Shown here piece by piece: positions 59,978 to 61,642 of a stretch of DNA of 64,000 bases. A model generated the notes under the pieces. It was not told the origin of the DNA, searched no databases, and was given only the letters and a program-made list of their open reading frames with translations. Where the stretch lies: contig OX597839.1 in assembly GCA_951406725.2 (NCBI GenBank), positions 7,750,001-7,814,000 of the forward strand, in the 5' to 3' direction. This DNA is from Octopus vulgaris (taxonomy: Eukaryota). Within the stretch, counting starts at the first letter, position 1; each line of letters starts with the position of its first letter. The position numbers and the translations under genes are program-made.

Positions 59978-60060
<83 letters not shown>

Positions 60061-60061
60061 G

Positions 60062-60119
<58 letters not shown>

Positions 60120-60162
60120 TGTATGTGTGTATGTATGTATGTATGTATGTGTGTGTGTGTGT

Positions 60163-60195
<33 letters not shown>

Positions 60196-60509
60196 AAGCG
60201 CAATGGTCCCAGAAAGGCTCGACACCGTCACGGTGCCCTAAACCTGCAAAGGGAGGTAATTCCCCGATGTCGAGCCTTTCTGGTGACGTCGATGTTCGCC
60301 TGGGGCTAAATGCAACAGTAACACCCCCACCACCCTGCCCTGTCCCTAGCCATATTCAGATGGCTTTAGTCCCTTATGTTATCGAGCAGTTACTGTCTAT
60401 ATCCCTTTTAGAGAATTATTATTGCTTTCGAACAGATTTTCGAAATCAGCAAATGTATTTTGCTTGAAAATCTATATAAGAAAATCCTGCATAGTGAGAA
60501 TTCGTCGAG

Positions 60510-60583
60510 GAAGCGGAGGCCTACCACACGCCGATGATAGGCAATACACCTTGAAACCATGGTCCGTGTGTGGTTTCCGCTTC
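60510..60583 (+). ncRNA. Type I hammerhead ribozyme (variant core CCGAUGA)
   Basis: Distal stem I GAAGCGGAGGCC/GGUUUCCGCUUC; UAC/U internal loop; proximal stem I CACACG/CGUGUG; core CCGAUGA; stem II AGG-CAAUACA-CCU; GAAA; palindromic stem III ACCAUGGU; GUC triplet, predicted cut after 60564. Confidence 0.85.
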
Positions 60584-60869
60584 ATCGGGGAATTACCTCC
60601 CTTTGCAGGTTTAGGGCACCGTGACGGTGTCGAGCCTTTCTGGTGACGTCGATGTTCGCCTGGGGCTAAATGCAACAGTAACACCCCCACCACCCTGCCC
60701 TGTCCCTAGCCATATTCAGATGGCTTTAGTCCCTTATGTTATCGAGCAGTTACTGTCTATATCCCTTTTAGAGAATTATTATTGCTTTCGAACAGATTTT
60801 CGAAATCAGCAAATGTATTTTGCTTGAAAATCTATATAAGAAAATCCTGCATAGTGAGAATTCGTCGAG

Positions 60870-60943
60870 GAAGCGGAGGCCTACCACACGCCGATGATAG
60901 GCAATACACCTTGAAACCATGGTCCGTGTGTGGTTTCCGCTTC
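60870..60943 (+). ncRNA. Type I hammerhead ribozyme, second tandem copy
   Basis: Identical to 60510-60583, 360 bp downstream; predicted cut after 60924. Confidence 0.85.
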
Positions 60944-61144
60944 ATCGGGGAATTACCTCCCTTTGCAGGTTTAGGGCACCGTGACGGTGTCGAGCCTTTC
61001 TGGTGACGTCGATGTTCGCCTGGGGCTAAATGCAACAGTAACACCCCCACCACCCTGCCCTGTCCCTAGCCATATTCAGATGGCTTTAGTCCCTTATGTT
61101 ATCGAGCAGTTACTGTCTATATCCCTTTTAGAGAATTATTATTG

Positions 61145-61226
<82 letters not shown>

Positions 61227-61227
61227 G

Positions 61228-61290
<63 letters not shown>

Positions 61291-61350
61291 GTGTATGTAT
61301 GTATGTATGTATGTGTGTGTGTGTGTCTGTGTGTGTGTGTGTGTGTGTGT

Positions 61351-61642
61351 GAAGCGCAATGGTCCTGTGGTTAGGGCAGCGGACTCGCGGTCGTAGAATC
61401 GCAGTTTCGATTCCCAGACCGGGCGTTGTGGGTGTTTATTGAGCGAAAACACCTAAAGCTCCACGAGGCTCCGGCAGGGGGTGGTGGCGATCCCTGCTAT
61501 ACTCTTTCGCCGCAACTTTCTCTCACTCTTCCTTCTGTTGGGGTGCTTGCTTAGTCAGCGGGGTGGCGTCATTTGAAGGCTAAAACAATGCGAAGCGCAT
61601 TGCGATAAGCGATGTGTAGCAACATCTGATAGGCTGGTCGAT

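What the first reader, a model, noticed from the sequence alone, without database searches (positions are those of the whole stretch)
59981..61365. ~220-230 bp flanking duplication (giant TSD) around the 360-bp ribozyme array
Seen: the whole compound microsatellite (AT)17-GTATGT-(AT)n-(AC)n-GCACAC-(AT)n-(GTAT)n-(GT)n-CT-(GT)n, plus the first 15 nt of a SINE (GAAGCGCAATGGTCC), occurs at 59981-60209 and again at 61147-61365, differing only in repeat counts. The SINE continues only after the right copy, so the array inserted later and duplicated its target. Typical retrotransposon TSDs are tens of bp or less. Inference: first-strand priming at the (AT)n edge and a distant second nick. The target ATGGTCC at the left junction also matches the HHR cleavage-site sequence (ATGGTC^C), which may be coincidence.
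Basis: partly seen in the sequence, partly recalled or inferred. Interest (0 to 1): 0.7.

Follow-up and report, generated by a model that had tools for sequence, protein, structure and literature searches.

The report
Ribozyme insertion with giant flanking duplication
A young ribozyme-like jumping repeat sits between two copies of the same 220-230-base stretch of host DNA, and two other copies of the repeat show the same thing, likely because the second DNA strand was occasionally broken far from the first cut; this rare outcome is known for other retrotransposons but I did not find it described for this type.

Summary
The duplication is real in the assembly: 59981-60209 and 61147-61365 share one order of microsatellite tracts and a variant SINE head, and a 21-mer at their ends occurs only at these two places in the 2.8-Gb genome. 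The insert is a young non-LTR retrozyme (360-bp hammerhead-motif units) with Penelope-type ends; the scan already reported this family on other DNA. Of 178 family loci scored, 3 have a long direct duplication abutting both junctions (229/219 bp here, about 220 bp, about 940-1010 bp); excluding this one, 2 of 177. All three begin at the (TA)n priming tract and end at a non-(TA) 5' junction with 1-3 nt microhomology. One two-armed copy has a 110-130 bp duplication; four have about 10-14 bp. Best reading (0.5): target-primed insertion with a distant second-strand break. Main rival (0.3): aborted homology repair plus end joining. The ATGGTCC match is chance-level (P 0.28). Reads could not test the junctions, and no empty allele or autonomous partner was found. 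Rare long target duplications are known for L1, ZfL2-2, Dualen, R9 and HERV-K; my searches found none for Penelope-type elements. Modest interest.

The parts
59981..60209 (+). Left copy of the duplicated target: compound microsatellite plus first 15 nt of a SINE (229 bp)
60209..60269 (-). 61-bp inverted piece of the unit (unit positions 313-360 and 1-13; exact reverse complement of 60583-60643); 1-nt microhomology with the target at 60209, 2-nt (TG) with the direct arm at 60268-60269; 16-nt overlap with the direct arm
60268..61146 (+). Direct arm: 2.44 units of a 360-bp repeat, no mismatch between units, ending at the 'tailed' 3' end (unit position 155/156) against (TA)17
60523..60573 (+). Type I hammerhead-like motif, unit 1 (CCGAUGA core at 60531, GAAA at 60553, palindromic short stem III, predicted cut after 60564); read by eye, no Rfam match, cleavage untested
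60883..60933 (+). Same motif, unit 2
   Evidence: period 360, no mismatch
61147..61365 (+). Right copy of the duplicated target (219 bp), starting at the (TA)n tract that adjoins the element's 3' end
61351..61650 (+). High-copy SINE-like repeat whose head is in the duplication; continues only here (tRNA origin is recalled from its A/B-box-like head; ARAGORN finds no tRNA)
   Evidence: (very high depth)

Best explanation
A 938-bp hammerhead-motif repeat sits between two copies of a 219-229-bp host block, likely because a Penelope-type enzyme nicked one strand in the (AT)n tract and copied the RNA there, while the other strand would have broken about 229 nt further on, so that fill-in likely duplicated the block between the two breaks. 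Shown: the duplication, its polarity, the tailed 3' end at (TA)n, the inverted 61-bp piece, 1-2 nt microhomologies, and the same layout at two other loci. Inferred: (1) a trans-acting Penelope-like RT/GIY-YIG protein primed cDNA at the fixed tailed start; (2) the usual second arm, primed in the same (TA)n tract at the other fixed start, did not form; (3) the top strand broke at a distant site, either an unrelated host nick or a cut in a farther (TA)n tract later trimmed back; (4) the cDNA end was joined by microhomology, the inverted piece arising by off-site second priming or fold-back synthesis; (5) tract counts drifted afterwards by slippage or were mis-called in assembly.
For: Same polarity at 3 of 178 loci: block starts at the (TA)n beside the tailed 3' end and stops at the 5' junction. 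At all three the element's first bases match the target's continuation (1, 3 and 1 nt), as expected for joining at a break in the target. A graded series exists: about 10-14 bp at four non-microsatellite sites, about 60 bp at L047 (weak), 110-130 bp at L226, a two-armed copy whose two ends lie in different (TA)n tracts and whose shared 20-mer occurs only twice in 1.77 Mb. L226 points to staggered cuts tens of bases apart being resolved as duplications. Precedent: distant second nicks proposed for L1 TSDs over 100 bp (under 10% in HeLa, most inserts in NER-deficient cells; PMC5223499 passages); one 1228-bp TSD among 25 ZfL2-2 inserts (PMC2666801 passages). Copy-to-copy differences at L096 (3 small differences outside long tracts in about 870 bp) fit the element's own 2 private changes in 995 bp, so no second allele is needed.
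Against: The three distal breaks are not in (TA)n, the family's target; the next (TA)5+ tract lies 284, 498 and 606 bp beyond. A purified Penelope-like protein cuts both strands at AT-rich sites and starts RT at fixed sites (PMC11167929 parts 1-2), and 153 of 187 blocks have (TA)n on both sides, so a local double break is the norm, which favours the repair rival. The inverted piece starts at unit position 13; only 4 of 130 two-armed blocks start outside positions 81-156. No read evidence, no empty allele, no partner element.
Confidence: 0.5

Rival explanations
1. Both strands were cut in the (AT)n tract as usual. The right end primed cDNA; the left end, failing to prime, invaded the intact sister chromatid or homologue, copied about 229 nt, was released and was end-joined to the cDNA (aborted SDSA plus polymerase-theta-type joining).
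For: Gives exactly the observed structure and polarity with no distal nick. Local two-strand cutting is the family norm (153 of 187 blocks with TA on both sides). Such repair yields tandem duplications of about 100 bp to 10 kb, median about 1 kb, with microhomology and templated inserts in C. elegans helq-1 mutants (PMC8654963 passages), the size range seen here. Short fold-back pieces at other 5' ends (L123, L124, L187) resemble templated inserts. A homologue template would explain 6 changed tracts beside an unmutated insert.
Against: Does not explain L226, where both ends carry primed arms in different (TA)n tracts. Those duplications are rare in wild-type worms. Copy divergence does not exceed what age allows.
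Confidence: 0.3
2. A normal two-armed (inverted) insertion formed first; its palindromic left arm later broke and was repaired by copying the downstream microsatellite block, leaving a 61-bp stump of the left arm.
For: The inverted piece has a family-like inversion centre with a 16-nt overlap (a 15-bp overlap is described for a rotifer Penelope copy, PMC3846280 passages) but lacks the fixed outer end.
Against: L096 and L169 have no inverted remnant; 130 two-armed blocks persist among 187; it needs a second event at an insertion with no internal substitutions.
Confidence: 0.08
3. Assembly or polishing artefact from a heterozygous insertion: the left copy comes from the empty haplotype.
For: Count differences in 6 tracts; some loci show runs of 1-bp deletions typical of consensus errors (L082); junctions not confirmed by reads.
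Against: No N in the window. The target-to-element join would exist in neither haplotype, and 1-3 nt is no overlap for an assembler. Three loci on two chromosomes share polarity and microhomology with the target's continuation. Only one full-identity copy of the left flank exists in the assembly.
Confidence: 0.08
4. The block was already tandemly duplicated, and the retrozyme later inserted into the second copy's (AT)n tract.
For: Compound microsatellites are unstable, and the tract is the family's normal target.
Against: Part of the (AT)n tract should remain left of the insert; none does at any of the three loci, and the junction microhomology is with the sequence that follows the block in the uncut target.
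Confidence: 0.04

Closest known systems
Metazoan non-LTR retrozymes (Cervera and de la Pena 2020, PMC7229834, passages; Li, Clavereau and Pollet 2026, 10.64898/2026.07.22.740005, part 1 of 5 and passages)
   Same: Dispersed tandem units of 150-450 bp with a type I hammerhead motif per unit; proposed to derive from Penelope-like pLTRs.
   Different: Passages seen say only that TSDs, when present, exceed 4 bp; no duplications of hundreds of bases. Core here is CCGAUGA, not CUGAUGA.
Endonuclease-positive Penelope-like elements (PMC3846280 passages; PMC8557442 passages; PMC11167929 parts 1-2)
   Same: Two fixed 3' ends about 45 nt apart (tail), inverted 5'-truncated arm, (TA)n/AT-rich targets, 15-16-nt overlap at the inversion, occasional 5' joining by microhomology.
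   Different: TSDs reported there are 8-10 bp or absent; this copy has 219-229 bp, and no coding partner was identified.
Rare long TSDs of LINEs and ERVs: L1 over 100 bp (PMC5223499 passages), ZfL2-2 1228 bp (PMC2666801 passages), HERV-K 111 and 250 bp (PMC5488345 abstract)
   Same: Minority outcome, variable length, direct duplication abutting both ends.
   Different: Different element classes; LINE cases are from cultured cells, while these are genomic copies of a non-coding Penelope-type passenger.
Dualen-4b_cRei (median 900 bp) and rotifer R9 (126 bp), both as given in PMC9977147 passages
   Same: Long duplications flanking non-LTR insertions, in the same size range.
   Different: There the long TSD is the rule (over half of Dualen insertions; fixed length for R9); here about 1% of loci, variable length.
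Tandem duplications from aborted SDSA plus polymerase-theta end joining (PMC8654963 passages)
   Same: 100 bp to 10 kb direct duplications with microhomology or templated inserts.
   Different: No retroelement at the junction; seen mainly in repair mutants.

Membership tests
Non-LTR retrozyme | Dispersed tandem units of 150-450 bp | tested here: met
   360-bp period; 595 candidates, 259 matches among 40 scored
Non-LTR retrozyme | Type I hammerhead motif in each unit | tested here: inconclusive
   Core, GAAA and stems found by eye with a CCGAUGA variant; the monomeric hammerhead fold (-4.4 kcal/mol) is less stable than the predicted minimum (-17.7); no Rfam hammerhead match
Non-LTR retrozyme | Self-cleavage and circular RNA | not testable with these tools
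Non-LTR retrozyme | No protein-coding capacity; GC below 50% | not tested
   No dedicated ORF or GC test on the unit
Penelope-type insertion | Two fixed 3' ends separated by a 30-45-nt tail | tested here: met
   Ends pile at unit positions 110-112 and 155-156 (82 and 69 ends among 126 blocks); 526 and 433 exact ends genome-wide
Penelope-type insertion | Inverted 5'-truncated arm | tested here: met
   130 of 187 blocks two-armed; this copy has a 61-bp inverted piece with a non-standard outer end
Penelope-type insertion | (TA)n or AT-rich target | tested here: met
   3' end abuts (TA)17 here; 153 of 187 blocks have (TA)4 within 45 bp of the other end too
Penelope-type insertion | Short TSD (8-10 bp in PMC3846280) | tested here: not met
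   219-229 bp at this copy; about 10-14 bp at L040, L041, L063, L065
Penelope-type insertion | Autonomous RT plus GIY-YIG partner sharing the terminal sequence | tested here: inconclusive
   Such ORFs exist in the genome (L104) but none next to unit-like sequence in the 120 loci and window screened; no genome-wide protein search was run
R9-type fixed long TSD | Constant long TSD at a fixed site | tested here: not met
   Lengths about 110-130, 213-229 and 936-1014 bp at unrelated sites
Dualen-type long TSD | Most insertions duplicate more than 50 bp | tested here: not met
   3 of 178 loci over 200 bp; microsatellite-only duplications are hard to see and may be undercounted

The most novel reading that the evidence does not exclude
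Penelope-mobilised retrozymes recurrently duplicate 0.1-1 kb of host DNA, and the length is set by chromatin or replication geometry: two of three long cases are 213-229 bp and the third is about four times that, as if the second break fell at an Okazaki-fragment or nucleosome boundary. These loci would then record where the unknown second half of Penelope integration happens.
Probability: 0.1. Interest if true: 0.62.

Novelty: new variant of a known kind. Interest (0 to 1): 0.36.

Why it matters
The steps after first-strand synthesis in Penelope integration are unvalidated (PMC11167929). Copies in which the second arm failed show how the other DNA end is handled and set a testable choice between a distant nick and host repair. 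They also show that a non-coding ribozyme repeat can duplicate up to about 1 kb of neighbouring DNA. With several hundred loci and a rate near 1% (95% interval 0.14-4.0%), only a handful of such events are expected per genome, so the genomic effect is small, and comparable rare long duplications are already known for other retrotransposons.

Tried and rejected
Reads: Logan contigs of X1, X2, X6, X15 and X1, X2, X3, X10 were laid; the tool skipped the microsatellites, so neither the left junction nor an empty allele could be seen. In one search no listed piece crossed the inversion joint at 60269/60270 and no joint was listed, with 133 pieces not shown; this could mean the insertion is absent from those samples, but a hole proves nothing, so it is not used as evidence. 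Empty allele in the assembly: only one full-identity copy of the left flank. Relatives: none held for this genome. ATGGTCC as a guided site: chance-level. High overlap scores rejected: L092 (inserted between units of a ~290-bp tandem) and L130 (duplication starts 592 bp from the junction); L037, L103, L135, L139, L193, L205 (inside long degenerate arrays with common words). Longer duplications: for 19 ends without a local duplication, 9.9 kb more flank gave only partial matches to repeats (4 of 19 with hits) and no abutting duplication; target deletions cannot be seen without empty alleles. Preference for the tailed end: 3 of 22 against 0 of 10, p 0.53. The contrast 3 of 34 non-TA junctions against 0 of 153 TA junctions (p 0.006; 0.03 without this locus) is partly circular, because a long duplication itself creates a non-TA junction. 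Autonomous partner: not found. Rfam: only low-complexity miRNA noise. Literature searches for a Penelope or retrozyme long TSD found none; the library lacks most subscription papers, bioRxiv supplements were closed, and no supplements were read.

Full report
Observation. They share the order of tracts and interruptions and the 15-nt SINE head; 6 of 11 parsed tracts differ in count. A 21-mer from the end of the block occurs twice in the 2.8-Gb genome, at these two places. The head differs at two positions from the commonest SINE head in the fetched DNA (30 occurrences), so these are not two independent SINEs. The window has no N.

The insert. It is 938 bp: a 61-bp inverted piece (60209-60269, exact reverse complement of 60583-60643) and then 2.44 direct units of 360 bp with no mismatch between units. 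Junction microhomology is 1 nt with the target and 2 nt at the inversion, and the two parts overlap by 16 nt of unit sequence. Each unit has a type I hammerhead-like motif with a CCGAUGA core, read by eye; Rfam has no match and cleavage is untested. The unit has 595 candidate places genome-wide, with many copies at 99-100% identity. Its 3' ends pile at two points about 45 nt apart, almost always against (TA)n, with 433 exact tailed and 526 exact tail-less ends. Of 187 blocks, 130 are two-armed inverted insertions. Two fixed starts, a tail, an inverted arm and AT-rich targets are the Penelope-like footprint (PMC11167929 parts 1-2 of 4; PMC8557442 passages; PMC3846280 passages), and animal retrozymes are proposed to be Penelope derivatives (10.64898/2026.07.22.740005 part 1 and passages). 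The scan had already reported this family and this reading on other DNA. My look-ups for long flanking duplications in it found no such note.

How often is the flank duplicated? I fetched 180 loci: 40 best BLAST loci including this one; 80 from chromosomes 1-3, of which 75 were chosen for lacking an exact partner end and so are enriched for odd copies; 20 next in the list; and 40 from the list. Two were dropped for lack of a left flank (L171, L196), leaving 178 loci and 187 blocks. This is a part of the roughly 950 exact ends. Flanks were compared by BLAST and by a microsatellite-collapsed overlap alignment with a mismatched-pair null. Three loci have a direct duplication over 200 bp abutting both junctions: this one; L096 (element C3:51993817-51994811; 936 bp right, 918 bp plus a 96-bp TA tract left; 97.8%; microhomology GAA); and L169 (C3:73670525-73671686; 213 and 222-223 bp; 99.1%; microhomology G). 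By set, excluding this locus: 0 of 39, 1 of 80, 1 of 19, 0 of 39; overall 2 of 177 (95% interval 0.14-4.0%). All three start at the (TA)n beside a tailed 3' end and stop at a non-(TA) junction. L226 (C8:103134874-103135051), a two-armed copy of an older subfamily, has a 110-130-bp compound-microsatellite duplication whose 20-mer occurs only on its two flanks in 1.77 Mb. L047 may have about 60 bp (weak). Four copies in non-microsatellite sites have about 10-14 bp. Duplications of pure (TA)n cannot be measured. So the giant duplication is a real but rare tail of a variable distribution.

Mechanism. Best reading (0.5): target-primed reverse transcription from a nick in (AT)n, with the opposite strand broken 229 nt downstream and the cDNA end joined by microhomology. 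The polarity, the microhomology with the target's continuation at all three loci (1, 3, 1 nt; roughly 1 in 1000 at equal base frequencies, post hoc arithmetic) and L226 support it, as do the L1 and ZfL2-2 precedents. Against it, the distal breaks are not at (TA)n (next tracts 284, 498, 606 bp beyond), and both cuts normally fall in one tract. Main rival (0.3): a local double break whose left end copied the sister or homologue and was then end-joined to the cDNA, as in the 100 bp-10 kb duplications of worm repair mutants. Sequence alone cannot separate these. Later breakage of a two-armed insertion (0.08), assembly artefact (0.08) and a pre-existing duplication (0.04) are less likely for the reasons listed. 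The changed tract counts do not decide the matter: slippage is far faster than substitution (general knowledge), long tracts also differ at L096 and L169 while short ones do not, and assembly error may contribute. For L1, discrete TSDs in twin-primed inserts and broader ranges in 5'-truncated ones are read as protection or processing of the second end (PMC11702581 passages), which parallels this family.

The ribozyme-site match. ATGGTCC at the left junction is a 7-nt sense match; 28% of 4000 random flank positions do as well, and the insert does not continue from that site. The other two breaks each overlap a 9-nt antisense match to the unit (2.9% each in the null). This was noticed after the fact on two loci and is only a lead.

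Limits. Reads did not test the junctions, no empty allele or relative was available, and no autonomous partner was found, although RT plus GIY-YIG ORFs occur in the genome.

Novelty. Long target duplications are in print for L1, ZfL2-2, HERV-K (abstract), Dualen and R9. Seven searches found none for Penelope-like elements or retrozymes, whose TSDs are given as 8-10 bp or simply over 4 bp. Verdict: a real, recurrent but rare variant of a known insertion type; interest 0.36.

Noticed in passing
window 59762-59727, minus strand: A second hammerhead-like motif with the canonical CUGAUGA core, in an older repeat (about 59600-59981; 764 candidate places, 74-95% identity) that ends at the duplicated (AT)n tract.
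   Followed up: partly
L054 (C9, element 52363008-52364673): 1.4 kb of flank directly beside the element is present again, inverted, 1.6-3.0 kb away on the other side at 98.9%.
   Followed up: no
L082:5359-5621: A 262-bp inverted copy of nearby flank (99.6%) lies between the two arms of an insertion; this locus also has many 1-bp deletions suggesting consensus errors.
   Followed up: no
L130: A 566-bp flank block recurs at 99.6% starting 592 bp past the other junction, with an 82-bp inverted piece between: a complex local rearrangement joined at (TA)n tracts.
   Followed up: no
L126:5613-6461: Two near-identical two-armed copies 180 bp apart, separated by a short mirror-like flank.
   Followed up: no
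L096 and L169 5' junctions: Each break overlaps a 9-nt antisense match to the unit (2.9% each in the null, post hoc); possibly aborted annealing of the target end to the RNA.
   Followed up: partly
L104:7337-9370: 677-aa stop-to-stop frame with RT and C-terminal GIY-YIG matches, a Penelope-like element 1.4 kb from a retrozyme copy; not shown to be the partner.
   Followed up: partly
L114 and L115 (C1:136174492 and 136193193): Two short tail-less ends facing outward 18.7 kb apart, with no unit sequence seen between them.
   Followed up: partly
L031:2266-2461, L119:4732-4865, L054:9025-9191, L082:7588-7677: Relatives of the unit's 3' part at 63-71% identity: sister repeat families.
   Followed up: no
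window about 61830-62230: High-copy stretch that looks by eye like a broken Tc1/mariner transposase fragment; resemblance recalled, not tested.
   Followed up: no
window 45723-46207 and 49678-50052: Two short tandem arrays of a 184-bp unit.
   Followed up: no
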